Part shown: positions 47,892 to 58,118 of the stretch, one piece after another
Layout: each line of letters begins with the position of its first letter
Position numbering within the stretch: position 1 is the first letter of the stretch
Source: a virus
DNA length: 64,000 bases
Direction: 5' to 3' (one strand)
IMG/VR virus record: IMGVR_UViG_3300029787_000023
Span: 6,215 to 70,214 of that record
Notes under the pieces: generated by a model
The model's input: only the letters and a program-made list of their open reading frames with translations
What the model was told of the DNA's origin: nothing
Database searches by the model: none
Program-made: the position numbers and the translations under genes

Positions 47892-48109
47892 AATGTCCTC
47901 GCTGCGACAGCAAGACCCGTGTGACTTCCAGCCGGACGGCGTTTACGCCACAAGGTTGTAAGTCGGCGGGTTTGGCTAAGCGAGCCGTATCATGGTTTAC
48001 TGAAGACTGGGTGTCTCGCGTGCGCTGTTGCACCAAATGCAACTGGAGAGACTACACAGTTGAGATATGTATAGACGACTTGAAGTCAGGCTGGAAGCGC
48101 AAAGCTTGA
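47888..48109 (+). CDS. NrdR N-terminal-like zinc-ribbon protein
   Basis: MKCPRCDSKTRVTSSR...RVRCCTKCNWRDYTVE. Confidence 0.75.
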   Translation: MKCPRCDSKTRVTSSRTAFTPQGCKSAGLAKRAVSWFTEDWVSRVRCCTKCNWRDYTVEICIDDLKSGWKRKA

Positions 48110-48216
48110 CACGTACCCTGCAACCTCGATAGATTGGGTGAAGCCATGCTGCATCTCCTATCGGTTTGGCTCAGGGTTTAGGCGTCGTCCGTCTGCTTAG
48201 TCGGGCGGCGTCTTTT
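48106..48216 (+). ncRNA. Candidate small RNA of about 75 nt, with its promoter and intrinsic terminator
   Basis: TTGACA(48106)-N18-TAGATT(48130). Hairpin aggcgtcgtccg/cgggcggcgtct plus ttt at 48180-48216. The 5' part is complementary to leaders of upstream genes. Confidence 0.5.
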
Positions 48217-48259
48217 GCTTACGGGATATGAACAATGCTGACCACATCGGAGATGGACA

Positions 48260-50323
48260 ATGACAGTCATGGGAGTGACACAAGAAACTAACGACATTTT
48301 GAGCGGCCTCCTTGAAGCGGTGAAGAGTGCGGACAATGATGCCAAGAAGCAAGCATGGGCAGGCGTGCAAGACCCTGACGTGCTCGACGCACTGGCAGAC
48401 GAATGGAAGAAAGACAGTGAGCGTATCAGCACCATGCTGTCTACGATCGAGTCTGTACCGGGCCAAGTAAACAAGGCAAGGAACCTTCGCTCTGCAATCA
48501 AGCGTCTCGCAGACGAGCGCATGCAGAAGATCATCGAGTCTCAAGTGACTATGATGGAGCAGGAGCTCTTGGCTCTCTGTACGATGAGCGCGGCTCTCGG
48601 AGCCAGTTCTCCTCCAGCTACCGTCATCGAGAAGTCGGTGCTCGATATGCTGCGCGTACCGAGAGGCTATGAGATCGACGTCTCTGGCGTATACAAGCTG
48701 AGCGCAGGAATGGACGGAGACATCAGCAGAAGTCGAGTGGCTCCAGCTCCTATCTTTATATCGGGCCGGACCATCGATGTGCTCACCGGAGAAGCGAAGC
48801 GACAGGTTGTCTGGCGCGGCCCCGCCGGATGGTGCTCCAGAGTGATCGACCGCCGGACGATCTTAGACACCTCGCGGATCATGGCACTGGCAGACCTCGA
48901 AGCGCCGGTCAGCAGCAACCACATCTCACAGGTTGTCTCCTACCTTGCTGACTTCGAAGCGGAAAACAACCACCGCTTCCCTGCGGTACAGTCGGCGTCC
49001 CGCATGGGGTGGCTACCAGATGGCGGTTTCCTTTTACCGGACAAACACTATACGACAGATCAAAAGCCATCTTCGTTCGCGTTGACCGCACCTCCAGGAC
49101 TGGAGACCATCTCGCAAGGATGGAAGAGCAAGGGTTCTTGGTCCGAGTGGAAAGTCGCGATCGAGAACGTACTCGAGTATCCGTACATGATGATCGCCAT
49201 CTATGCTTCAGCCGCAGCCCCCATCCTCGAAGTACTGAAGCTACCCGGCTTCGTCGTGGACTTCAGCGGTGAGACTTCGGGCGGTAAGACTACGGCGCTT
49301 CGATTGGCTGCGTCTGTGTGGGGTAAGCCTTCTGACAGCTACCCCACGGCTATGTACAGCTGGGATGCCACCAAGGTCTGGATCGAGCGTACTACCGGAT
49401 ACCTGCACAGCCTGCCCCTCATCCTCGACGAGACCAAGCGAGTTCGTCACCCCCGGATGATCCGTGACGTCATCTACGACTTCTGCCAAGGTCAGGGTCG
49501 CGGTCGAGGTAACCCGGATGGCACGCGTCGTATCGAGTCTTGGCGCACCGTGCTCATCAGTTCTGGAGAAGGTGCTGCGACCTCGTTCAGCCAAGACGCA
49601 GGTACGCGAGCTCGGGTTCTCAGCCTCAAGGGCAAGCCTTTGGGAGATGATCCCAGAGCAGGCGGCAAGATGAGTGAGAACTTGCAGGTCGACCTGGCAG
49701 GCACCTATGGTCACCTGGGTCGGCGCATCATCGAATACTTGGTCGGCAACCAAAAGAGCCATGACCGCATTCGTGAGATCTTCCGCAACTCGAGAGATGG
49801 TTACGCGGCTATCGCTAAGACTGCTGTGGCTCGACGTCACGCGGCTCACTTGGCTGCACTCGACGTCGCAGCTACTATCGTCCATCAGATGGGTATACCC
49901 AAGCCTGTAGAAGATCCCTTCGCGCACTTGATCGAGAGTGCCTTCGCTGCAGGAGAAGACGCAGACAGGCCACTGTCAGCCATGCAGGACTTAGTCAGCT
50001 GGTGTGCCGCCAACCAAGCACGATTCTATGGTCGACATGATACGTCTTCGATGGGCATCGCTCGGGTACCGCACTCGGGATGGGGTGGAAGCTGGAGCGG
50101 CAAAGACGACTGGGACTACATCGCAGTCACAGCACTGACTATCCGAGAAGTACTCAAGGAGCTGGGCTACCACCCAGAAGAACTCCTCACTCGATGGGAC
50201 GAGCGTGAGTGGTTGTACCGTGGCCGCGGTCGAAACAGGACTCGAGTGGTGCGCGTGGATGGTGTATCGATTCGTTGCTACTGCATCAAGAGAAGCACTG
50301 CAGACCTGGCATTGGAAGACTGA
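48260..50323 (+). CDS. DUF927-domain replicative helicase/ATPase
   Basis: SASRMGW, FSGETSGGKTTAL, SVWG, PLILDE, GQGRGR, WRTVLISSGE, TYGHLGR, and a C-terminal winged-helix-like region. Confidence 0.85.
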   Translation: MTVMGVTQETNDILSGLLEAVKSADNDAKKQAWAGVQDPDVLDALADEWKKDSERISTMLSTIESVPGQVNKARNLRSAIKRLADERMQKIIESQVTMMEQELLALCTMSAALGASSPPATVIEKSVLDMLRVPRGYEIDVSGVYKLSAGMDGDISRSRVAPAPIFISGRTIDVLTGEAKRQVVWRGPAGWCSRVIDRRTILDTSRIMALADLEAPVSSNHISQVVSYLADFEAENNHRFPAVQSASRMGWLPDGGFLLPDKHYTTDQKPSSFALTAPPGLETISQGWKSKGSWSEWKVAIENVLEYPYMMIAIYASAAAPILEVLKLPGFVVDFSGETSGGKTTALRLAASVWGKPSDSYPTAMYSWDATKVWIERTTGYLHSLPLILDETKRVRHPRMIRDVIYDFCQGQGRGRGNPDGTRRIESWRTVLISSGEGAATSFSQDAGTRARVLSLKGKPLGDDPRAGGKMSENLQVDLAGTYGHLGRRIIEYLVGNQKSHDRIREIFRNSRDGYAAIAKTAVARRHAAHLAALDVAATIVHQMGIPKPVEDPFAHLIESAFAAGEDADRPLSAMQDLVSWCAANQARFYGRHDTSSMGIARVPHSGWGGSWSGKDDWDYIAVTALTIREVLKELGYHPEELLTRWDEREWLYRGRGRNRTRVVRVDGVSIRCYCIKRSTADLALED

Positions 50324-50604
50324 TGGCAGACCCCCAGGAGATACTCGAGTGGATCGGTCAGATCGAGTGCGATGCGCTCCGTCTTGAGCCTGCAGAGTTC
50401 TACGATCCATTCATCCTGGGTGTGGCCTATCGATGTCATACAGGACCGCTACTGGTCTATGACATGCCTGCGATACTCGAGGCCCATGTCAAAGAAGGCA
50501 TGACCTACACAGAGGCAGAGGAGTACTTCAACTTCAACACACTGGGCGCATGGGTCGGAGAAGGCACACCTATATTCCTTGACACCTCACCCGGAGACAG
50601 CTGA
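50323..50604 (+). CDS. Conserved phage hypothetical protein
   Basis: ILGV...LVYD...GMTYTEAEEYFNFNTLGAWVGEGTPIF pattern recalled from aquatic phages. Confidence 0.75.
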   Translation: MADPQEILEWIGQIECDALRLEPAEFYDPFILGVAYRCHTGPLLVYDMPAILEAHVKEGMTYTEAEEYFNFNTLGAWVGEGTPIFLDTSPGDS

Positions 50605-50792
50605 TGCCGATCTACGAGTACCAGTGCCCCGTCTGTAAGAAGAAGCGAGAGATGCTTCAACGCATGAGCGACGCAAAGGCTCCTGTGTGTGAGCCCTGCG
50701 CCAAGAAGATGACGCGGCTGATCTCAAGCACCAGCTTCTCTCTGAAGGGCGACGGTTGGTACAAGGACGGCTACGGGCTCAGGAGCGAATGA
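50604..50792 (+). CDS. FmdB-family zinc-ribbon protein
   Basis: MPIYEYQCPVC...CEPC...RLISSTSFSLKGDGWYKDGY. Confidence 0.88.
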   Translation: MPIYEYQCPVCKKKREMLQRMSDAKAPVCEPCAKKMTRLISSTSFSLKGDGWYKDGYGLRSE

Positions 50793-52057
50793 ACTACACC
50801 TACTTCGCAAGCGGGGCAACGATGGCAGTGGATCTACTGGGATTCGCTGACATCGATCACCCGGCAGGCATCACCGTCGACATCATGAACGAAGAGTCCC
50901 ACGCAGCCGTGCTGTCACTGGCAGGTACGGGGCTCAAGATATTCATCGACTCGGGTGCCTTCAGCGAAGTCAAGGTAAATCGAAGAGGTCAGATCAAAGT
51001 CGTCCGTCCTATCGACGAGGCTGAGTGGCGCAGACGCATCGGTGTATATCGAGACCTGGCAAAGAGACTCAAGTCTCAGCTCTACGTCGTTGCCCCCGAT
51101 CGTGTGGGCAGTCAGAAGGAAACGATGCAGAGGTTGGTGCGCCACCTTGATGAGCTCAGAGAAGTGAGCGAGGAGGGAGCCAACATCTTGGTGCCCCTGC
51201 ACCTGGGCGAGATGACACAGATAGAGATGCACCATGCCGTATCGAGAATGATGGAAGGTATGAACTGGATGCCTGCACTACCGTGTAAGAAGGCAGCGAC
51301 CAGTGCGGAAGAGATCCTCGAGTACTGCGATGTGATGAGGCCGAACCGTGTCCACCTGCTCGGCGCTGGTCCCAAGAGCGAGGTAGCCTTTCAAGTGCTG
51401 GACATCATCTGCACCCAGACCGATGTCTATATGGACAGCTGCTGCCTTCGCTCGAACTCAGGTTTGACGAATGGTAGAGGGGGCGGTCCTCGAGTGCTGA
51501 CCATTGCCAAGGCACTGACCGATGCCGCGGGGTATCAGTTCGGAGAAGCGCGCAGACTCTCGATCTCGATGACGTTCCAGCAAGACACCGAGTTGATGTG
51601 GCGCTACCAGACGGGTGCTGTGAAGTGCCCTGACGGATCGGTCATAGGCAGTGCGTACTGTGTGCTCGGCTTGTCGAGATACCTTGCCGTCGCCATAGAC
51701 GACGCTGAAGCCATTGAAGAGTACTTGGGCGACCCACCGACAGGGAATCTCTACGTAGGGCTCTGGGACTTAGATACGGCTGAGCTACTGGGTCTGGCGG
51801 AGTTCGACGCTGAACACCCATTCACGCTTCACCTTAGCTGTGATCTCCCTGAAGTCGTCGAGTTCTGGTTTCTGGCCCAGTGCTTCAGACAAGTTCAGTT
51901 CAAGCTACCCCATAGAAGAGTCGCCTTGATCATCGCACCCAGGATAAAGAGCGCGATTAAATACCGGAAGTCTTGTTTGGCCATAGAACCTTGTGGAGCT
52001 GAACCTGCATCCGAGCCAGCACCTTGTCCTGGAGCATCCACTCAGCCAGGTCTTTAG
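50789..52057 (+). CDS. TGT-fold (DpdA-like) base-exchange transglycosylase fused to a degenerate Mom-like domain
   Basis: IFIDSGAFS, VAPDRVG, VPLH, RVHLLG and MDS motifs of tRNA-guanine transglycosylase/DpdA-like proteins; adjacent to queE/queC. The C-terminal region aligns with ORF 54484-55266. Confidence 0.7.
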   Translation: MNYTYFASGATMAVDLLGFADIDHPAGITVDIMNEESHAAVLSLAGTGLKIFIDSGAFSEVKVNRRGQIKVVRPIDEAEWRRRIGVYRDLAKRLKSQLYVVAPDRVGSQKETMQRLVRHLDELREVSEEGANILVPLHLGEMTQIEMHHAVSRMMEGMNWMPALPCKKAATSAEEILEYCDVMRPNRVHLLGAGPKSEVAFQVLDIICTQTDVYMDSCCLRSNSGLTNGRGGGPRVLTIAKALTDAAGYQFGEARRLSISMTFQQDTELMWRYQTGAVKCPDGSVIGSAYCVLGLSRYLAVAIDDAEAIEEYLGDPPTGNLYVGLWDLDTAELLGLAEFDAEHPFTLHLSCDLPEVVEFWFLAQCFRQVQFKLPHRRVALIIAPRIKSAIKYRKSCLAIEPCGAEPASEPAPCPGASTQPGL

Positions 52058-52598
52058 GATCCAGCACGCCCCACACCGGAGACAGCAGGTAGTTTGCGTT
52101 GTGCTTACTCATAACTTCGAGCGCCCAGTCATAGTCCTGCCGGGAGCCGATCACGATCTTGACCTCGTCACCCTCGCCAAGCAGTTCGATATTCGACCAC
52201 AAGTTCTTGGCTGATTCGCCTGAGCTCGGTGCCTTCAAGTCCATGATCGTGCTGACACTCAGCGGTACTTCGGCCACGCTGATCGAGCCCGACGTCTCAA
52301 GTAAGACCTCGTAGCCTTCATCGAGGAGCGTCTGCATCAGAGTCATGCACTCCTTCTGAGCCAAGGGTTCACCCCCTGTGACTTGCACTAAGGGTATCTC
52401 CAGTTCGTCGACCTTCGATATGATCTGCTCGATCGACATCCAGTCCCCGCCGCTGAAGGTGTACTCAGAGTCGCACCACGTGCAGCGTAGGTTGCAGCCT
52501 GTCAGACGCACAAAGGCGCAGAGACGGCCAGCATGAGTGCTCTCTCCCTGCACCGACGCATAGATCTCTGTGACCTTCAGGCGAGGCAACTGTTGCAC
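51957..52598 (-). CDS. queE: 7-carboxy-7-deazaguanine synthase (radical SAM)
   Basis: EIYASVQGE, FVRLTGCNLRCTWCD (CxxxCxxC), VTGGEPL, LETSG, DLKAPSSG, QVQLHK. Start probably TTG at 52589. Confidence 0.95.
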   Translation of the reverse strand: MQQLPRLKVTEIYASVQGESTHAGRLCAFVRLTGCNLRCTWCDSEYTFSGGDWMSIEQIISKVDELEIPLVQVTGGEPLAQKECMTLMQTLLDEGYEVLLETSGSISVAEVPLSVSTIMDLKAPSSGESAKNLWSNIELLGEGDEVKIVIGSRQDYDWALEVMSKHNANYLLSPVWGVLDPKDLAEWMLQDKVLARMQVQLHKVLWPNKTSGI

Positions 52599-53140
52599 TC
52601 CCCGCAGGGCTCACCGTCTCGGGGCTCGTAGCAAGACCACCAACCATCGAGTTCGATACTTGCGGCTTCATCCTTGATCTCTTGCTTCGTCATGTTGATC
52701 AAGGGGGCCTCGACACTGACACCCCAGTCCGACGCCAGCGTGTCCTGTAGGTCGATCCAATCAGGCCGACAGTCTGGGTAGTCTGCGTTGTCTCCGAGAT
52801 TGGCTCCGTACCACACAGCCTCGGCCCCGATCGAAGAAGCGACGTTGACACCGAAGGCGATCATCACTTGGTTACGAGCTGCAAGTACTCGAGGACCAGG
52901 CGTACCTACACCAAGGTTCATTGTGTCTGTGCCCCACAGAGGTAGGCTCATCTCGATGCTTCTGATCGAGTGACCATCCTTGTGCTTCTGCTGCAACCAC
53001 TTGCTCACAGCTTCAGACTCTTGGGGCGCTGCGGGATGAGCGTAGCGAAAGAACAGGACAGCCAGCTCCTTACCCTCACGGAGCGCACGTTCCGCAAGAA
53101 GCATGGAGTCGAGTCCTCCTGAGAAGAGGAGTAAGATCAT
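52577..53140 (-). CDS. queC: 7-cyano-7-deazaguanine synthase
   Basis: LLFSGGLDS PP-loop, ARN, YPDCRP, APLINMTK, WSCY...PCGECNSC zinc site. Confidence 0.92.
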   Translation of the reverse strand: MILLLFSGGLDSMLLAERALREGKELAVLFFRYAHPAAPQESEAVSKWLQQKHKDGHSIRSIEMSLPLWGTDTMNLGVGTPGPRVLAARNQVMIAFGVNVASSIGAEAVWYGANLGDNADYPDCRPDWIDLQDTLASDWGVSVEAPLINMTKQEIKDEAASIELDGWWSCYEPRDGEPCGECNSCLA

Positions 53141-53544
53141 CCGTCGATCAATGCCTCAAGCAGATCGACCGCGCTCTTGCGTGTCTTGCCTGCCTTCTCA
53201 GCCGCCAGCAATGCCGCAGCATAGGCGCTGTAGTCGTTGTCTGCGAGAGCCTTGCGTAGATTGCGCACAGACATATCGAGTAGGTCCATGACTTCAGCCG
53301 GTACCTCGACAGCCGCGGGCTCTTCGACGGGGGGAGACTCGTCTACGACGGTGGCTCCCAGCCTCTCTGTCAACTCCGCAAGGTAGTGGAACGAGCCATA
53401 CACGCGAGCGAATCCCTGCCCACTACGCATGCTCTCTGTGATCTCAAGATGCTCGATCTCGATGTACTGACGGATCGGGTTGTAGGCGCGGTTCCAGCGA
53501 GTTCGGGTATCGGGGCCGCTGAACTTGAGACTAATGGAAAGCAT
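53137..53544 (-). CDS. Hypothetical protein, first gene of the queCE operon
   Basis: AGGAGGAG RBS; ATGA overlap with queC; small helical C-terminal domain (LLAAEKAGKTRKSAVDLL). Confidence 0.7.
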   Translation of the reverse strand: MLSISLKFSGPDTRTRWNRAYNPIRQYIEIEHLEITESMRSGQGFARVYGSFHYLAELTERLGATVVDESPPVEEPAAVEVPAEVMDLLDMSVRNLRKALADNDYSAYAAALLAAEKAGKTRKSAVDLLEALIDG

Positions 53545-53707
53545 GACTCCTCCTTGGGTTGGTCCTATAACTTGTATGATCGATCATCTCAACCTCCTTG
53601 TCAATGTTCTTAGACATCATCGTTCCCTGTGTACCAGAGAGCGAATCCATCCAGAAGACAAGGCACCCAGATGATCGAGGTAGCGACTAAGAAACCTTCC
53701 AAGAAAG

Positions 53708-54043
53708 TCATGGGATCCCCACCTTGTAGCCAGTACAGGGACAGCCAGGATCGGAACATTGACACCAGTCCTGTTGACCTTCCCAGACATCGTAGTGATC
53801 TTCCTCTGCGTCTTCCTGGGCACGAGCAAGAGTGTCGAAGACTTCAACTTCCGGCGCCTCGTCCCAAGACACGTACCAGCGAGACTCGAACTTACCGGCC
53901 GGTGCGGAGCGAACCTCGCACCATCGATCATCGTCGATCTCAAGACGGAGCATCACGTCGACTTGGTCTTTGAGCTCATGGTTGAGTTTGTCGTCCTGCC
54001 AGTCGCAGCCCTCGTACTCAGGCGGGTTCGGTAGTCTTCTCAT
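53708..54043 (-). CDS. Hypothetical acidic protein with C-terminal Cys cluster
   Basis: GGAGG RBS; ends WCQCSDPGCPCTG. Confidence 0.65.
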   Translation of the reverse strand: MRRLPNPPEYEGCDWQDDKLNHELKDQVDVMLRLEIDDDRWCEVRSAPAGKFESRWYVSWDEAPEVEVFDTLARAQEDAEEDHYDVWEGQQDWCQCSDPGCPCTGYKVGIP

Positions 54044-54224
54044 CTTCCACCTCCTTCTTCAATCGAACCAAGACAGGCGTACCTTCCTGGGCGTTGGCGA
54101 TCCGAATACACACGCCGTGCATGATGTCCTGCACGTTACCGCAGTTAGCCATCTGTCGAACCATCGCCTCGGAGCGAAGCCGCTTGAAGGCGGCGTCTGA
54201 TATATGCAGTTCAATCTTCCTCAC
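54018..54224 (-). CDS. Small hypothetical protein (ribbon-helix-helix-like)
   Basis: MRKIELHISDAAFKRLRSEA start pattern; coupled to neighbours. Confidence 0.55.
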   Translation of the reverse strand: MRKIELHISDAAFKRLRSEAMVRQMANCGNVQDIMHGVCIRIANAQEGTPVLVRLKKEVEDEKTTEPA

Positions 54225-54484
54225 GCTTCCTCCCTTACTACCTGCGCCAGCGGGTTCATAGTCATGTGATTGAGACTGCGGTAGACATCGGCAAAGACCT
54301 CGTTGAAGGCTTGAGTCGCCTGCTCAGGGTCCATGCCGTTGACGATGCAGAGAGTAGCCAAGCAGAGCATGATCTCGCCTGGGGTGCGCTCGTCGTCGAC
54401 GTGACCCTCGACCAGTTCGTACAAGGCACGACGAAACTCGAGTGGTGGGTCGACACGTTGTGCGGCGGGTAGTTTAGCGGACAT
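54221..54484 (-). CDS. Hypothetical protein
   Basis: TAATG-coupled to the Mom-family gene. Confidence 0.6.
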   Translation of the reverse strand: MSAKLPAAQRVDPPLEFRRALYELVEGHVDDERTPGEIMLCLATLCIVNGMDPEQATQAFNEVFADVYRSLNHMTMNPLAQVVREEA

Positions 54485-55266
54485 TATAGTTCTCCCTTTG
54501 GGTATGGTAGGTTTGCCTTGAATCGGCGAGTGGTTTGTTTCTTCTGTCTCTTGTTTCCAAGAGCCCAGACGTAGGCATGATTGCCTGGATGTGATTGCTT
54601 TCTCAGTAGGCCCAGGTCGATGACTCGATCGATCCAGTCGGCCGCTTCCTCGCCAGGTTCACGAAGCGGAGCCCCGATGTCGACGAGCTGACGTTCGACG
54701 TAGAACCTGCCGCGCTCTCCGTTGCGGAGTTTGTTGAGCGTGCGTCGGTAGAAGGTCTGACCCTGCGGTCCGATGTAGGTGATCTTCGATGTGCTCTTAC
54801 CCACATAGATGCCGTTGTGTGCCTGGTAGATCGTGCCCAGATGACCAGGCATGAAAACCGAACCGTCAGGTCTTTCGCGGGGAATGGGGTCGCTGAAGGA
54901 CAGGATGAAGCGTACGTCGGGAAGTCGCTGCTCGACCACTCGGAAGCACTGAGCCAGGAACCACGTCTCCGCATTGGAGGCGACCTCGTCGAGAATGACG
55001 AGCCTGTTCAACTCGACACCTTCATGTTGGTCGGCACCGTCCACGTAGCGGGCGAAGGTCAGCGGGTGGGCAGGCACACCGAAGACGGCGACCCCTACTA
55101 ACTCGGGACCGTCCAGCTTCCACAAGCCGACACGAATCCGCGCAGCAGGGTAGCTGCCACTGTAGTGGTGCTCGGTGATGAACTCCTTGGCGACCTTGTC
55201 AGAGTCGATGGGGATCACCACGTACTTTGACGTGTCAATAACTTTGTCTGGCTTGTGTCTGGACAT
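54484..55266 (-). CDS. mom: Mom-family (GNAT-fold) DNA adenine modification protein
   Basis: FITEHHYSGS, LVGVAVFGVP, ELNRLVILD...NAETWFLA, ILSFSDP, GHLGTIYQAHNGIYVG: the motif series of Mu Mom homologs. Confidence 0.85.
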   Translation of the reverse strand: MSRHKPDKVIDTSKYVVIPIDSDKVAKEFITEHHYSGSYPAARIRVGLWKLDGPELVGVAVFGVPAHPLTFARYVDGADQHEGVELNRLVILDEVASNAETWFLAQCFRVVEQRLPDVRFILSFSDPIPRERPDGSVFMPGHLGTIYQAHNGIYVGKSTSKITYIGPQGQTFYRRTLNKLRNGERGRFYVERQLVDIGAPLREPGEEAADWIDRVIDLGLLRKQSHPGNHAYVWALGNKRQKKQTTRRFKANLPYPKGEL

Positions 55267-55284
55267 TACAGTTCTCCTTCCCTC

Positions 55285-55312
55285 AGTGTATCAACTCATG
55301 ACATCCCGTCAA
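55285..55312 (-). promoter_or_regulatory. Sigma70-like promoter of the Mom-family gene with operator-like palindrome
   Basis: Minus strand TTGACG-N16-TACACT with TG extension. ATGACATCCCGTCAA matches the XRE-promoter palindrome at 13 of 15 positions. Confidence 0.55.
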
Positions 55313-55315
55313 GTA

Positions 55316-55825
55316 TTACTTACGACGAGGTAGCTTCAAGTCTGTGCCCCAGGTCTCAGCCAGTGACAGTCGAATCATCTCGACAGCAGCCGGACCAAGT
55401 CTCGGGATCTCCAACAGGTCGTCGACGGTGTGCCGAAGTAGCTGCTCGACAGATCGAATCCCGGCGTTGGTCAACAGGTTCACGATGCGCTTCGGGAGTC
55501 GTAGAGCTGAGAGCTCCTGTTCTTCCATCTGGCAGATAAACTCCTCCGCCGCTTCTTCCTCCCCGTCCCACTCTGATGTCGTGATCTCGATCCGATCCTG
55601 CTGCCAGTCCGAGTTGGGCTGGTACACGATCAGTGCGTCGCCCTCGACCATCTCCAGCAGAACCCGTGCGGGTAGGTCGGGGATGGTGCTCGCCAGCTTG
55701 AACAGTCTCGCTGCCTGGTTGCGGCTCTCCTGGGTCAGAGACGTGTCGTCGCTGTTGAGCGCCCACTTGACCAGTCCCGTGACCGTCAGGTAGCTGTTGC
55801 TGTGGATTGTATATTGCGCGTTCAT
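55316..55825 (-). CDS. Protein with RNA polymerase alpha-subunit C-terminal domain-like region
   Basis: LSALRLPKRIVNLLTNAGIRSVEQLL...DLLEIPRLGPAAVEMI follows the alphaCTD pattern (L.LS.R..N.L...GI..V.DL...LL.IPN.G.KS..EI). Confidence 0.8.
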   Translation of the reverse strand: MNAQYTIHSNSYLTVTGLVKWALNSDDTSLTQESRNQAARLFKLASTIPDLPARVLLEMVEGDALIVYQPNSDWQQDRIEITTSEWDGEEEAAEEFICQMEEQELSALRLPKRIVNLLTNAGIRSVEQLLRHTVDDLLEIPRLGPAAVEMIRLSLAETWGTDLKLPRRK

Positions 55826-55827
55826 GA

Positions 55828-56172
55828 TTATGCCTCCAGCACGTCGAGTGCTTTCTTGATTAGATACTTGGCGTCGGTGTCAAAGATGTCGTAGTACATG
55901 CCTTCCGCATCGAGGTAGCAGGCATCCTTGCAGTACAGGTCTTGGATGTCCCAGTTGAGTACCTCGACCCACCCGCTCTGTCTTGTCCAGAACTCGGCGA
56001 TAGCGTAGCTGCCTGGGCTACCCGAATGGAAGCTACGCAGTCGTATCCGTAGACGACGACTTGTAGCCAAGTTTCCAGTCTGCGAGTCGTACTTGTTGAT
56101 CCGTACGATGCGGTCCAGATGACACGCCTGACCTTTGATGTAATAGCTGTTCTGAATGAACTCGGCTTTCAT
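55828..56172 (-). CDS. Hypothetical early protein
   Basis: MKAEFIQNSY start with GGAAGGT RBS; ATGA overlap. Confidence 0.6.
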   Translation of the reverse strand: MKAEFIQNSYYIKGQACHLDRIVRINKYDSQTGNLATSRRLRIRLRSFHSGSPGSYAIAEFWTRQSGWVEVLNWDIQDLYCKDACYLDAEGMYYDIFDTDAKYLIKKALDVLEA

Positions 56173-56378
56173 GACCCACCTTCCTTGGTGTCTTGGGGTT
56201 CGGGGTACGCGCGGAGAGTAACGAAGCAGTTGGCCTCGCATCGATGGCACCACTGTGTGGAGCTGCAACTTCCTGAGCCAAACCAGTCGTCGGACTCACC
56301 CGTGTTCGGGTTGACCCACATGGCGACTTGGATGTCCTCTCCACCACACTCTTCGCATACATATACTTCTCTTGCCAT
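56169..56378 (-). CDS. Small zinc-finger protein
   Basis: CEECGG...WVNPNT...WCHRC. Confidence 0.7.
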   Translation of the reverse strand: MAREVYVCEECGGEDIQVAMWVNPNTGESDDWFGSGSCSSTQWCHRCEANCFVTLRAYPEPQDTKEGGS

Positions 56379-56611
56379 TACTCACCTCCCGTGAACATAG
56401 GATCGTTGTCTGGAATGTCGTCAATCGGATCGAGGATGTCCCACGCATCATCAATACGCGCAGACTCCACCTCCAAAAGCGGAGCATGATAACTTTGACC
56501 CTTTCTCTGGTGGGAAATACCCGCTTCCGTCAGTTGACTTTCCAACCACGCCAGCTTGGGGTCATTGGTACGCTTAGTGAATCTCACGAAGGTTACGGAC
56601 TCACCCATCAC
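56378..56611 (-). CDS. Hypothetical early protein
   Basis: GGGAGGT RBS; KRTNDPKLAWLE...SYHAP...IDDIPDNDP. Confidence 0.65.
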   Translation of the reverse strand: MMGESVTFVRFTKRTNDPKLAWLESQLTEAGISHQRKGQSYHAPLLEVESARIDDAWDILDPIDDIPDNDPMFTGGE

Positions 56612-56820
56612 TCACCTCCCTTTGCTTGCTCGATTGCTTCTGCTCCGCAGGTGGCACACGTCCAGATGTCTTGCTCGTCTGGAGCGTGCAGCACTTGGCA
56701 GTCGGACTTTGTCGATAGTTCAACGAAGTTACCCTCGCCGTCCACAATCCAGTCTTCGGTTACGTGCGCCGTAACGACGAACTGTTTGTGGTCTTTGTCC
56801 TGTGGGCATACCATCATCAC
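56608..56820 (-). CDS. Small zinc-binding protein
   Basis: CPQDKDH...AHVTEDWIVD...WTCATCG. Confidence 0.65.
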   Translation of the reverse strand: MMMVCPQDKDHKQFVVTAHVTEDWIVDGEGNFVELSTKSDCQVLHAPDEQDIWTCATCGAEAIEQAKGGE

Positions 56821-56975
56821 TATCCTCCGTTGTATACGTGATATCGTCCGTCCAGCTCACACTGGATGAACAGGTTCAGCTTCGTGTTTCTGTCGCAGAA
56901 AGCCATGGCTTCTGCGAGTGTCAGAAACGCCTTGATCGAAACGACTGTGGGCCCGTATGGTGAAGGACTGCCCAT
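56820..56975 (-). CDS. 51-aa hypothetical protein (not in ORF track)
   Basis: MGSPSPYGPTVVSIKAFLTLAEAMAFCDRN...YNGG*; GGGAGGT RBS; fills the gap exactly. Confidence 0.55.
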   Translation of the reverse strand: MGSPSPYGPTVVSIKAFLTLAEAMAFCDRNTKLNLFIQCELDGRYHVYNGG

Positions 56976-57571
56976 CACTCACCTCCCTTTCTGTCTGGGT
57001 GATGAGGCTCGTCTCGCATCATCTCCTTGGCTTGTTCGAAGGTCGTGTCCTCGATCCATCGAACCGCGTTGGTCCATTCCTCGTCGTCCTCTGCGAAGAC
57101 AGCGAGAGTCGGAAGGCCAGAGTCGACGATGCCCTCGGGGTACCAGACCACGCTGTCGCCGTTGCGGTTGACGTATGCCATGACTCGGATGTCGCCGCCC
57201 AGACACCACTCGTTCCAGTGTCGGTCGGGTGAGTCGAGTACGTTTGCTGGATCCTTCTTCAGTGATTGATACAGGGGACGACCATCGAGATGTTGGTCGT
57301 AGCGTGCGGGGCCTTCCGTGATGTGGATGACGGGGCACAGAGTCCACTGCTCGGTCCATCGGCACCAGCACTTGCGGCACGTGTAGTCGCGGTCCTCTGT
57401 GTTCCAGTCGTCTTGGTCGGACTCGAAGGTCAGGTCGGACCAGCCAGCGCCGCACGCGGGGCATGTGCTGCCCTGTCGGTTGGGCATGCTGATCGCGACG
57501 TCCTCGGACGTGGCGTGCTTGAGTTCGTCTTTCGTCAGTGTCTTCTGCTTGGTCTCTTGTAGGCGGCTCAT
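56975..57571 (-). CDS. Hypothetical protein with zinc ribbon
   Basis: CPACG...CRKC...WTEQW. Confidence 0.65.
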   Translation of the reverse strand: MSRLQETKQKTLTKDELKHATSEDVAISMPNRQGSTCPACGAGWSDLTFESDQDDWNTEDRDYTCRKCWCRWTEQWTLCPVIHITEGPARYDQHLDGRPLYQSLKKDPANVLDSPDRHWNEWCLGGDIRVMAYVNRNGDSVVWYPEGIVDSGLPTLAVFAEDDEEWTNAVRWIEDTTFEQAKEMMRDEPHHPDRKGGE

Positions 57572-57783
57572 ATCACGTTCCTCGTCGGGTTTAGGATCTC
57601 GGCCAGTTCATCCATGATGCTGGTCGTGCGGTCGTAGTTGGAAGAAGTCTCGGGGTCGGAGCAGTCGGAGTACTCGACCTCGATCATCGCGGGGTTCGGT
57701 GCGTGGCACTTGCGGCAGATGTGCAGGTCATCCCAGAACGTGTCGTAGGCCAGACAGCACTTGGTGCGTAGTTGCTTTTCCAT
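57568..57783 (-). CDS. Small Cys-rich hypothetical protein
   Basis: KCC...ICRKC; coupled start and stop. Confidence 0.55.
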   Translation of the reverse strand: MEKQLRTKCCLAYDTFWDDLHICRKCHAPNPAMIEVEYSDCSDPETSSNYDRTTSIMDELAEILNPTRNVI

Positions 57784-58118
57784 CAGGCACCCCGCGAGAT
57801 GTAGAGACGGTTCGCATCGTCGCGGGTCAACAGGTCGCCCATGGCGAAGACCACACCAGCCTCGATAGCGACGGTGTAGCTGATGCCACCCTTCGTCGCG
57901 TTGGCCTGGTATGCGAAGGACTCACCCTCGTTGATACGGACCAGTGTGCGGCCCAGCATGCGACCAGATATACGGACAGTCTTGCCGCTGGCCGCACGCT
58001 TGATGGTGAAGCCGCCGCACGTGTGCAGGCCGACGACCGTGTACTTAGAGCCAGTACGGCTCGTAAACTCAGCGCCGATGTCGACGCCCATGATGGTTGC
58101 TAACTCAGTCATGTTCAC
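57783..58118 (-). CDS. Hypothetical early protein
   Basis: GAGGAG RBS; first gene of the leftward early cassette. Confidence 0.65.
   Translation of the reverse strand: MNMTELATIMGVDIGAEFTSRTGSKYTVVGLHTCGGFTIKRAASGKTVRISGRMLGRTLVRINEGESFAYQANATKGGISYTVAIEAGVVFAMGDLLTRDDANRLYISRGA

What the first reader, a model, noticed from the sequence alone, without database searches (positions are those of the whole stretch)
50789..55266. DpdA-like transglycosylase fused to a degenerate copy of the phage's own Mom domain: candidate coupled deazaguanine/Mom DNA hypermodification system
Seen: the C-terminal part of ORF 50789-52057 (nt about 51674-51922) reads SRYLAVAID...YVGLWDLDTAELLGLAEFDAEHPFT...EFWFLAQCFRQVQFKLP. 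The intact Mom-family ORF (54484-55266, opposite strand) reads SKYVVIPID...RVGLWKLDGPELVGVAVFGVPAHPLT...ETWFLAQCFRVVEQRLP. The blocks are colinear and WFLAQCFR is identical, yet codons differ synonymously (ttt/ttc, gcc/gct, aga/cga), which points to protein-level selection rather than a fresh duplication. The fused copy lacks the HHY, ELxR, SFSDP and GxIYQA motifs, so it is probably non-catalytic. queE and queC lie between the two genes. Known: QueE and QueC make preQ0; DpdA-type TGT-fold enzymes exchange guanine in DNA for 7-deazaguanines; Mu Mom is a GNAT-fold enzyme making N6-carbamoylmethyl-adenine. I do not know of a described DpdA-Mom fusion. Inference: the pseudo-Mom domain may dock the transglycosylase onto active Mom or onto the same DNA/replisome site, giving doubly modified DNA, or directing the GNAT enzyme to decorate the inserted deazaguanine.
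Basis: partly seen in the sequence, partly recalled or inferred. Interest (0 to 1): 0.88.

Follow-up and report, generated by a model that had tools for sequence, protein, structure and literature searches.

The report
DpdA-like enzyme fused to dead Mom half
A marine phage carries a gene that joins a DNA base-swapping enzyme of the deazaguanine type to a shortened, inactive copy of the phage's own adenine-modifying enzyme Mom, and this rare fusion has been kept by selection for a purpose not yet known.

Summary
ORF 50789-52057 (422 aa) has two domains.

**Barrel (residues 1-265).** It is a TIM barrel. Its best solved structural match is the DNA preQ0 insertase DpdA (7ui4, Z 15.0), followed by two tRNA-guanine transglycosylases. 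A profile comparison aligns its invariant DSGAFS, D104 and H189 motifs with the invariant motifs of phage DpdA1 (E 2.6e-5). No Pfam TGT, DpdA or DUF6610 model reaches its cut-off.

**Tail (residues 295-389).** It is a truncated GNAT half, homologous to residues 9-122 of the phage's own Mom (BLASTP E 2e-14). It groups with that Mom clade in a tree (SH-aLRT 98.8). The equivalents of Mu Mom's essential R111, S124, D149 and R151 and the HTH-like insertion are all missing.

**Distribution and selection.**
- 5 of 121 family members carry the tail.
- Tail dN/dS is 0.125, against 0.096 for the barrel.
- queE overlaps the gene's 3' end in all 5 loci that reach that far.
- Mom follows in 2 of 2 loci long enough to show it.

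The tail is acidic, so it is unlikely to be a DNA clamp. Docking onto Mom remains untested, because the complex job gave no verdict. The scan has not flagged this fusion on other DNA.

The parts
50789..52057 (+). Whole fusion gene (422 aa plus stop): DpdA-like barrel, linker, pseudo-Mom half, disordered end
   Evidence: ORF and translation. Full-length homologues P0006-P0009 at 97, 86, 54 and 51% identity. AF2 model pLDDT 87.3, pTM 0.84.
50789..51583 (+). Residues 1-265: TGT-superfamily TIM barrel with family-invariant D54 (DSGAFSE), D104, H189, G192, G194, D216, R235
   Evidence: Invariant columns over 120 sequences. VIA-align top hits: DpdA 7ui4_A Z 15.0, arcTGT 13.8, TGT 13.2, next rows 12.3 or less. 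hhalign against 7 phage DpdA1: probability 74.6%, E 2.6e-5, 134 columns.
51584..51670 (+). Residues 266-294: linker. The nearest non-fusion homologue, P0010 (292 aa), ends here.
   Evidence: P0010 sequence and alignment by eye. W271, Y273, Q274, P281, G283 and S284 are invariant in the 5 fusions.
51671..51955 (+). Residues 295-389: truncated, catalytically dead GNAT half derived from the lineage's own Mom (beta1 to beta5; 18-residue deletion that removes the ELNR strand)
   Evidence: BLASTP E 2e-14. Alignment. Tail-only model: best solved match Mu Mom 8bv8_B, Z 8.0. Tree SH-aLRT 98.8. dN/dS 0.125.
51956..52057 (+). Residues 390-422 plus stop: disordered end that overlaps queE tail to tail
   Evidence: pLDDT below 50. 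dN/dS 0.74, 5.06 and 1.83 in this frame, meaning the constraint comes from queE on the other strand. Absent from P0009.
51957..52598 (-). queE (7-carboxy-7-deazaguanine synthase, radical SAM)
   Evidence: TIGR04349 E 2.5e-83. PHROG 2076 E 3.6e-34. Pfam Radical_SAM.
52577..53140 (-). queC (short form, 187 aa)
   Evidence: Pfam QueC E 8.2e-30. PHROG 1550 E 3.1e-38. TIGR00364 scores 94.3 bits, below its cut-off of 150.3.
53137..53544 (-). Unknown 135-aa gene leading the queC-queE block, conserved in relatives
   Evidence: No family hit. 74% and 61% identical copies in the same position in L013 and L014.
54484..55266 (-). Intact Mom-family enzyme (260 aa). It keeps the equivalents of Mu Mom H58, Y59, R111, D149, R151 and Y159, with Thr at the S124 position.
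   Evidence: Pfam Mom E 5.2e-31. Alignment to PDB 8bv8, read with the residue list in PMC13219725 section 13. Family consensus.

Best explanation
The gene encodes a two-domain DNA-modification protein. The N-terminal barrel is a divergent member of the TGT/DpdA base-exchange superfamily. It most likely swaps guanine in the phage's own DNA for a 7-deazaguanine, either preQ0 or a close precursor. That base would be made by the adjacent phage QueE and QueC from host-supplied CPH4, since the phage has no FolE or QueD. The C-terminal domain is a pseudo-enzyme. It is the acidic N-terminal half (beta1 to beta5) of a duplicate of this phage lineage's own Mom, added to the end of a roughly 290-aa barrel protein. 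It has lost every residue known to be essential for Mom chemistry, and it lacks Mom's basic DNA-binding half. Selection has kept it, so I read it as a structural or protein-contact module. It either packs on the barrel and dimerises the enzyme, or it pairs with the obligately dimeric Mom. I do not read it as a catalyst or a DNA clamp.

Shown: the folds, the motifs, the origin of the tail, the loss of catalytic residues, purifying selection and conserved gene order.

Inferred: DNA as substrate, the identity of the inserted base, and the tail's role.
For: **Barrel**
- Of 48,161 solved chains, the top three are DpdA 7ui4_A (Z 15.0, rmsd 3.2, 196 aligned), archaeosine TGT (13.8) and TGT (13.2). 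Unrelated TIM barrels start at 12.3.
- hhalign of the 120-sequence family profile against 7 phage DpdA1 gives probability 74.6%, E 2.6e-5. It pairs DSGAFS with DSGAFS, APDRVGDQ with LDGIGD, and vHLLGlG with vHGFG. These columns are invariant in both alignments.
- The order Asp(+4 Phe), Asp, His, Asp matches DpdA D95/F99, D130, H181, D256 (passages of PMC10164549).
- BFVD hits include 5 phage proteins named queuine tRNA-ribosyltransferase among the 50 rows shown; 3 of them are among the 23 matches at E 1e-3 or better.
- The 97%-complete genome has no other TGT or DpdA, although it encodes QueE and QueC. PMC10516641 (passages) reports that all viruses known to harbour 7-deazaguanine DNA encode a DpdA.
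- queE overlaps the gene's 3' end in 5 of 5 loci that extend past it: the window, L002, L012, L013 and L014.

**Tail**
- BLASTP E 2e-14 against the phage's own Mom.
- All 5 tails hit the own-clade Moms (P0002, P0126, P0127) first, by 9 to 30 bits over the fourth-ranked Mom.
- In the tree, the 4 tails plus the 4 own-clade Moms separate from 63 other Moms with SH-aLRT 98.8.
- The tail-only model best matches Mu Mom 8bv8_B (Z 8.0). All but two of the 50 rows are named acyl- or aminoacyl-transferases.
- dN/dS for window against L012 is 0.125 in the tail (29 synonymous, 18 non-synonymous changes) and 0.096 in the barrel.
- The tail is retained at 54% and 51% overall identity, where dS is saturated.
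- Net charge is -10 for the tail and +10 for the uncopied half of Mom.
- Mu Mom is a tight dimer whose tested interface residues, Y28 and W48, lie in the N-terminal part (PMC13219725 section 13).
- pTM 0.84 for the whole chain is consistent with fixed packing of the two domains.
Against: - No Pfam TGT, DpdA or Beta_protein match for the barrel. DUF6610 (the DpdA4 family) scores 16.1 bits against a cut-off of 27, and only 3 of 120 family members hit it at all.
- The Foldseek PDB search ranks sugar epimerases level with TGTs.
- There is no conserved Cys/His zinc cluster of the kind that bacterial DpdA and TGT share. The 7 phage DpdA1 sequences also lack an invariant Cys.
- hhalign did not extend to the proposed nucleophile D216.
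- 0 of 33 non-fusion family loci have QueC, QueE or Mom within the fetched flanks. A complete 275-kb phage with a family member has no QueC.
- Many family members sit inside polyvalent proteins. The family may therefore do something other than deazaguanine insertion.
- The tail evolves faster than the barrel: 42% against 61% identity to P0008.
- The Mu dimer residue W48 aligns with a Lys in this phage's Mom.
- PAE was not available, so domain packing is not shown.
Confidence: 0.55

Rival explanations
1. Physical coupling. The pseudo-Mom domain heterodimerises with active Mom through the retained N-terminal dimer surface. One complex would then install both a deazaguanine at G and the Mom adduct at A on the same DNA.
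For: Mu Mom is an obligate dimer, and the monomeric W48A variant is nearly inactive (PMC13219725 section 13). The tail covers the homologous N-terminal region (model 3-106 against chain 20-173). The tail derives from the same Mom clade that the phage keeps. Intact Mom follows the fusion in 2 of 2 loci long enough to show it. The acidic tail could face Mom's basic half.
Against: Y28 and W48 are not conserved in this phage's Mom, so the dimer mode is unknown here. The window-type tails have diverged far from Mom, with a path length of about 4 changes per column. Only two loci inform the co-occurrence, and Mom is common in phages (1381 homologues).
Confidence: 0.25
2. The barrel is not a deazaguanine DNA transglycosylase. 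It would be another nucleobase-transfer or glycosylase-type module of the TGT superfamily, like the TIM-B regulators or polyvalent-protein domains, and its position beside queE/queC would be incidental.
For: The family lies outside all DpdA/TGT HMMs. 0 of 33 non-fusion loci carry que genes. Family members are embedded in giant proteins with SNF2 helicase, LPD38, ddrB-ParB or methyltransferase domains. The best BFVD hit is an ART-PolyVal-like protein. A 2026 preprint describes TGT-related TIM-B proteins with non-DpdA roles (passages of 10.64898/2026.10.19.760177).
Against: The tail-to-tail overlap with queE is conserved in 5 of 5 informative loci. The phage has no other candidate insertase. The DSGAFS, D, H and DS motifs match phage DpdA1. 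DpdA is the top structural hit. Pfam Beta_protein gives no match.
Confidence: 0.2
3. The tail is a nucleic-acid handle. It would keep Mom's pocket for a tRNA 3' end or a flipped base, and would steer the barrel to DNA or even to tRNA.
For: Mom binds Gly-tRNA(Gly) and dsDNA (abstract and section 13 of PMC13219725). The invariant E358-x-WFLAQC helix corresponds to the helix that starts at Mu S124, in the donor-binding region. Other family members carry variable accessory domains at either end.
Against: The tail is strongly acidic in 3 of 5 proteins (net -10, -10, -8). The basic cleft and the HTH-like insertion assigned to DNA binding are missing. The R111 strand is deleted.
Confidence: 0.15
4. 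The tail is a decaying remnant with no function.
For: All catalytic residues are lost, it evolves faster than the barrel, and it is rare (5 of 121 members).
Against: dN/dS is 0.125 over 95 codons, close to the barrel's 0.096, while the overlapped end gives values above 1 in two of three comparisons. The frame stays open in 6 independent contigs: the window, L002, L012, L013, L014 and the source of P0009. 23 columns are invariant across the tails and Mom.
Confidence: 0.07

Closest known systems
Phage DpdA1 (for example Enterobacteria phage 9g 9g_00003, and phage CAjan)
   Same: TIM-barrel base-exchange scaffold. Identical DSGAFS motif. Aligned second Asp and H-x-x-G-x-G motif. Sits beside que genes. 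No invariant Cys.
   Different: No detectable tblastn similarity to any of 50,697 GenBank phage records. Below every Pfam cut-off. Carries a C-terminal pseudo-Mom domain. The phage supplies only QueE and QueC.
Bacterial DpdA of the Dpd system (Salmonella Montevideo, PDB 7ui4)
   Same: Best structural match (Z 15.0). Same order of acid/base Asp with +4 Phe, Asp, His, nucleophile Asp.
   Different: The bacterial enzyme has a zinc site, a 128-residue Ins8 and needs the DpdB ATPase. Here none of these is seen, and a GNAT half stands after the barrel.
DpdA4 / DUF6610 (Halovirus HVTV-1 gp69)
   Same: The only Pfam model that gives any signal (E 0.0089, residues 99-200). It is itself a distant TGT relative (PMC10516641 passages).
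   Different: 16.1 bits against a cut-off of 27. Only 3 of 120 family members hit it. DpdA4 is described as specific to archaeal viruses.
Mu Mom (PDB 8bv8), the tRNA(Gly)-dependent adenine N6 modifier
   Same: The tail shares ancestry and the beta1-beta5 GNAT topology. The phage also has an intact Mom.
   Different: The tail lacks the R111, S124, D149, R151 and Y159 equivalents, the second half of the fold and the HTH-like insertion. It does not hit Pfam Mom.
Eukaryotic TGT QTRT1-QTRT2 (an active subunit paired with a dead paralogue)
   Same: The concept is shared: a transglycosylase that works with an inactive paralogue domain. QTRT2 6fv5 appears in the structural list at Z 11.9.
   Different: Here the dead paralogue comes from a different enzyme family (Mom/GNAT), not from the TGT itself. 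The analogy rests on recalled knowledge of QTRT2.

Membership tests
TGT/DpdA superfamily | TIM barrel most similar to solved TGT/DpdA structures | tested here: met
   7ui4_A Z 15.0, 1iq8_A 13.8 and 3unt_A 13.2 are ranks 1-3 of 48,161 chains. The next rows score 12.3 or less. The margin is modest, and Foldseek ranked epimerases level with TGTs.
TGT/DpdA superfamily | Match to a curated sequence model (Pfam TGT PF01702, DpdA PF23859, DUF6610 PF20314) | tested here: not met
   No TGT or DpdA match in the genome at E up to 10. DUF6610 scores 16.1 bits against a cut-off of 27. Only 3 of 120 family members hit DUF6610 weakly.
TGT/DpdA superfamily | General acid/base Asp followed at +4 by an aromatic residue (DpdA D95/F99) | tested here: met
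   D54 is invariant and F58 nearly invariant. They are aligned by hhalign to the invariant D72-S-G-A-x-S of phage DpdA1. The residue roles come from PMC10164549.
TGT/DpdA superfamily | Base-recognising Asp and His (DpdA D130, H181) | tested here: met
   Invariant D104 and H189 align with DpdA1 invariant D114 and H196. Equivalence to D130 and H181 is inferred from their order.
TGT/DpdA superfamily | Nucleophile Asp (DpdA D256) | tested here: inconclusive
   D216-S217 are conserved in the family (D216 invariant, S217 nearly invariant), and D215-S216 are invariant in DpdA1, each about 20-27 residues after the His. The hhalign alignment stopped before this point.
TGT/DpdA superfamily | Structural zinc site | tested here: not met
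   No Cys among the invariant or nearly invariant columns of 120 sequences. The same holds for the 7 phage DpdA1, so this feature may define only cellular TGT and bDpdA.
TGT/DpdA superfamily | Neighbourhood of 7-deazaguanine synthesis genes | tested here: met
   For the fusion clade, queE is present in 5 of 5 loci that reach past the 3' end, and queC in the 4 that reach further. For the wider family, 0 of 33 loci.
TGT/DpdA superfamily | Guanine/7-deazaguanine exchange activity on DNA | not testable with these tools
   Needs nucleoside mass spectrometry or a base-exchange assay.
Mom family (PF25680), applied to the C-terminal domain | Match to the Pfam Mom model | tested here: not met
   No hit at E up to 1. 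Only one of the 5 fusions reaches E 0.055.
Mom family (PF25680), applied to the C-terminal domain | Homology to Mom and a GNAT fold | tested here: met
   BLASTP E 2e-14 to 7e-25. 8bv8_B is the top hit at Z 8.0. The model's alignment included Mom homologues, which leans it towards this fold. The full-length model, built without them, shows the same order of secondary-structure elements.
Mom family (PF25680), applied to the C-terminal domain | Essential residues R111, S124, D149, R151 and the HTH-like insertion (Mu numbering) | tested here: not met
   The R111 strand is deleted, the S124 position is Phe or Leu, and everything after beta5 is absent.
Mom family (PF25680), applied to ORF 54484-55266 | Pfam model and essential residues | tested here: met
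   108.3 bits against a cut-off of 27.1. R88, D126, R132, Y146, H34 and Y35 are present. Thr101 stands at the S124 position, which is the consensus of this subfamily.

The most novel reading that the evidence does not exclude
The pseudo-Mom domain tethers the deazaguanine insertase to active, dimeric Mom. That would create a single machine writing two chemically unrelated hypermodifications, at G and at A, on the same phage DNA. The barrel would also define a sixth DpdA-type subfamily, invisible to HMMs, that is widespread in metagenomes and in polyvalent proteins.
Probability: 0.2. Interest if true: 0.85.

Novelty: new variant of a known kind. Interest (0 to 1): 0.6.

Why it matters
DpdA is used as the signature gene for 7-deazaguanine DNA (PMC10516641). 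This barrel family escapes every current DpdA/TGT model. It still carries the DpdA motifs and, in this clade, overlaps queE. If it is active, surveys of deazaguanine-modified viruses undercount them.

The fusion is also a clean natural case of a DNA-modifying enzyme recruiting a dead half of a second, unrelated DNA-modifying enzyme from the same genome. Now that Mom's chemistry and dimeric structure are known (PMC13219725), this can be tested directly. The main question is whether two hypermodification pathways are physically coupled.

I found no paper describing a DpdA-Mom fusion. The search for 'DpdA, Mom, 7-deazaguanine, phage' returned 3 papers. I searched only the first (PMC8306585), where 'Mom' occurs once, in a reference title. 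The other two I saw only as listing rows, with 1 to 2 occurrences of 'Mom' each. The search for 'DpdA5, DpdA-like, TGT-like, DUF6610' listed 12 papers, none on such a family by title. The Mom paper holds neither 'fusion', 'fused' nor 'deazaguanine'.

Tried and rejected
**Complex prediction.** Mom (alignment A4) with tail residues 285-392 (alignment A3) gave no verdict: score 0.00 in both runs, and the controls were not run. This is evidence neither for nor against binding.

**Foldseek against the PDB.**
- The full model gave TGTs at about E 1e-5, but D-allulose epimerases and old yellow enzymes scored the same. It was not decisive.
- The tail model gave no match at E 1e-3 or better. SpeG-type GNATs scored about 0.1, and 8bv8_B came at rank 26.

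**Sequence searches that found nothing useful.**
- PDB sequence searches with P0001 and with the family profile found nothing relevant.
- Megablast of 48000-58000 and tblastn of P0001 against 50,697 phage records gave no match.
- PADLOC gave no hit for either protein.
- HMMER of the 111-aa tail against 1.84 billion representatives found only its own cluster (P0007) and a repetitive 175-aa protein, P0245. I judge P0245 spurious, because its BLASTP against Mom gives E 0.045 on a WYLVQC repeat. No free-standing tail and no other fusion was seen at that sensitivity.
- A viral-contig scan with Mom found only distant Moms at 26-42% identity. I could not ask whether own-clade Moms occur without the fusion.

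**Other dead ends.**
- PF26345, the precomputed domain on many 400-aa homologues, is not in the local Pfam copy. Its name is unknown to me.
- The promoter scan found two minus-strand sites, upstream of the 135-aa gene and of mom. The count (2) does not exceed the shuffles (mean 2.4), so they are leads only.
- No tRNA gene is in the window.
- Model coordinates and PAE were not available, so I could not inspect contacts between barrel and tail.
The contigs of P0008, P0007, P0010 and P0127 could not be looked up by identity.
They could show that this family or fusion was already listed.

Full report
**Setting.** The window is bases 6215-70214 of a 70,214-base virus record that is rated 97% complete. 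The finding covers the end of a plus-strand replication block and the start of a convergent minus-strand block. Upstream lie a DUF927 helicase with a Cch HTH domain (48260-50323) and a zinc-ribbon ORF (50604-50792). The gene order is: fusion gene 50789-52057 (+), queE 51957-52598 (-), queC 52577-53140 (-), an unknown 135-aa gene 53137-53544 (-), three small ORFs, Mom 54484-55266 (-), and a protein with an RNA polymerase alpha-CTD-like end at 55316-55825 (-).

**The observation.** It is correct in every checked detail.
- BLASTP aligns residues 292-380 of the 422-aa protein with residues 9-122 of the phage's Mom at 34% identity, E 2e-14.
- WFLAQCFR is shared.
- The alignment shows that the fused copy lacks HHY, the ELNR strand (an 18-residue deletion), SFSDP and everything after it.

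**The N-terminal domain.**
- The word-indexed homologue search returned 153 proteins, of which 120 were listed. Almost all match only residues 5-260 or so.
- An alignment of 120 sequences has invariant D54, A57, E60, W80, V101, A102, D104, H189, G192, G194, D216 and R235.
- The AlphaFold2 model is confident: pLDDT 87.3, pTM 0.84.
- Aligned against 48,161 solved chains, its three best matches are the DNA preQ0 insertase DpdA (7ui4_A: Z 15.0, rmsd 3.2, 196 residues), archaeosine TGT (Z 13.8) and bacterial TGT (Z 13.2). Ordinary TIM barrels follow from Z 12.3. Foldseek alone could not separate TGTs from sugar epimerases.
- To test the sequence level, I took 7 phage DpdA1 proteins from the 233 records that match phage 9g DpdA. 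I chose them from 14 rows spread down the ranking.
- Profile-profile comparison gives probability 74.6%, E 2.6e-5 over 134 columns. It pairs the family's DSGAFSE with DpdA1's DSGAFS, APDRVGDQ with LDGIGD, and HLLGLG with HGFG.
- In bacterial DpdA the active site is D95 (acid/base) with F99, then D130, H181 and D256 (nucleophile) (PMC10164549, passages). The family's D54/F58, D104, H189 and D216 follow the same order. The last pairing is by inspection only.
- BFVD adds several phage proteins named queuine tRNA-ribosyltransferase, and a polyvalent protein as the best hit.

Against simple membership:
- No Pfam TGT, DpdA or Beta_protein match.
- Only a sub-threshold DUF6610 (DpdA4) signal, in 3 of 120 members.
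- No match to any of 50,697 GenBank phage genomes.
- No conserved zinc ligands.

I therefore call it DpdA-like: a member of the superfamily, but not of a described subfamily.

**The wider family.** This weakens the functional inference.
- None of the 33 non-fusion loci I fetched (8 viral, 25 metagenomic) has QueC, QueE or Mom within the flanks, by tblastn with the window's proteins.
- None of 5 viral records has Pfam QueC. One of them is a complete 275-kb phage, and one is the fragment that ends inside queE.
- In four loci the barrel lies inside ORFs of 1271 to 2059 aa that also carry SNF2 helicase, LPD38, ddrB-ParB or methyltransferase domains. These are polyvalent proteins.
- A 2026 preprint shows that TGT-like barrels (TIM-B) can have other roles.

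In this phage, however, the barrel gene is the only TGT-type gene. It overlaps queE tail to tail in all 5 loci that extend past its end. The phage makes QueE and QueC but not FolE, QueD or QueF. A base-exchange enzyme fed by these two genes is the economical reading.

**The C-terminal domain.**
- Only 5 of 121 family members (P0001 and P0006-P0009) carry it. The next best BLASTP E-value against Mom is 0.55.
- An exhaustive HMMER pass over 1.84 billion representatives found no other copy.
- The nearest tail-less homologue, P0010 (292 aa), ends where the tail begins.
- Every tail hits the lineage's own Mom clade first: P0002, P0126 and P0127. For the P0008 tail this is 94 bits against 67 for the next Mom.
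- I built a tree on 90 columns with 4 tails, the 2 Moms from the window and L014, and 65 of the 119 listed Mom homologues (the best-scoring ones). The tails plus own-clade Moms fall on one side of a branch with SH-aLRT 98.8. The method was quick, the columns are few and there was no bootstrap.
- The tail-only model (pLDDT 82.2) best matches the Mu Mom crystal structure, Z 8.0. Other GNATs follow, including FemA and MprF. That model's alignment included Mom homologues.
- I mapped the phage Mom to 8bv8 and read the residue roles from section 13 of PMC13219725. The intact Mom keeps the H58, Y59, R111, D149, R151 and Y159 equivalents, with Thr at the S124 position. The tail has none of R111, S124, D149, R151 or Y159, and it lacks the HTH-like insertion.

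**Selection.**
- Between the window and L012 (86% identical protein), dN/dS is 0.096 in the barrel and 0.125 in tail residues 295-389, from 29 synonymous and 18 non-synonymous changes.
- Against L002 the tail gives 0.236, from only 11 changes.
- The last 33 codons, which overlap queE, give 0.74, 5.06 and 1.83. They are constrained by the other strand and are probably not a functional peptide.
- Against L014, dS is saturated.
- The tail is less conserved than the barrel: 83 against 91%, 42 against 61%, and 36 against 57% identity.
- The tail is therefore maintained but evolves faster. This fits a binding or scaffold role better than either catalysis or decay.

**What the tail does.** It is acidic: net -10, -10, -8, -1 and -5 in the five proteins. 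It corresponds to Mom's acidic half (-5). Mom's basic half (+10) was not copied. This argues against a DNA clamp. Mu Mom is a tight dimer whose tested interface residues lie in the N-terminal region, which leaves self-association or pairing with Mom as the leading ideas. The single complex job returned no verdict. Co-occurrence with Mom rests on 2 of 2 informative loci.

**Verdict.** This is a real, selected and rare fusion of a DpdA-like barrel with a pseudo-Mom half, in a phage that also encodes QueE, QueC and intact Mom. It is a new variant of a known kind. The chemistry of the barrel and the role of the tail are still inferences.

Noticed in passing
L021:6077-12253, L032:8894-13774, L019:167-4513, L020:6816-10628: The same barrel domain lies inside giant ORFs (1271-2059 aa) that also carry SNF2 helicase, LPD38, ddrB-ParB or methyltransferase domains. 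These are polyvalent proteins of phages and mobile elements. One locus (L036) has an ORF of about 4600 aa that holds it.
   Followed up: partly
homologues P0011, P0012, P0014, P0016, P0017 and others: Many homologues of about 400 aa carry an N-terminal domain that is precomputed as PF26345. That family is not in the local Pfam copy, so I could not name it.
   Followed up: partly
window 51957-52057; L014 2313-2419: The fusion gene and queE converge and overlap by about 100 bases in every relative. In the fusion's frame this stretch gives dN/dS of 0.74 to 5.06. Antisense or transcriptional interference between the two genes is possible.
   Followed up: partly
window 53137-53544 (-): An unknown 135-aa gene overlaps the start of queC by 4 bases. 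It is conserved in L013 (74%) and L014 (61%). It matches no family. The Atlas model gives only a weak ACT-like resemblance for residues 1-70 (TM about 0.42).
   Followed up: partly
window 55316-55825 (-): The protein just upstream of mom ends in an RNA polymerase alpha C-terminal-domain-like helix-hairpin-helix (Pfam RNA_pol_A_CTD E 1.2e-7, residues 102-155).
   Followed up: partly
window 52598; L012 and L013 queE: In L012 and L013 the codon after the GTG that matches the window's queE start is a stop. The true queE start is therefore probably a few codons downstream of 52598.
   Followed up: no
L014 1124-6911 against the window: Divergence is uneven between the two phages: QueC 92%, Mom 86%, QueE 67%, the unknown gene 61%, and the fusion protein only 54% identical. 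This suggests fast evolution or recombination around the fusion-queE junction.
   Followed up: partly
window 54484-55266: This Mom subfamily has Thr where Mu Mom has the essential Ser124. The consensus of the 120 aligned sequences is GETWFLA.
   Followed up: partly
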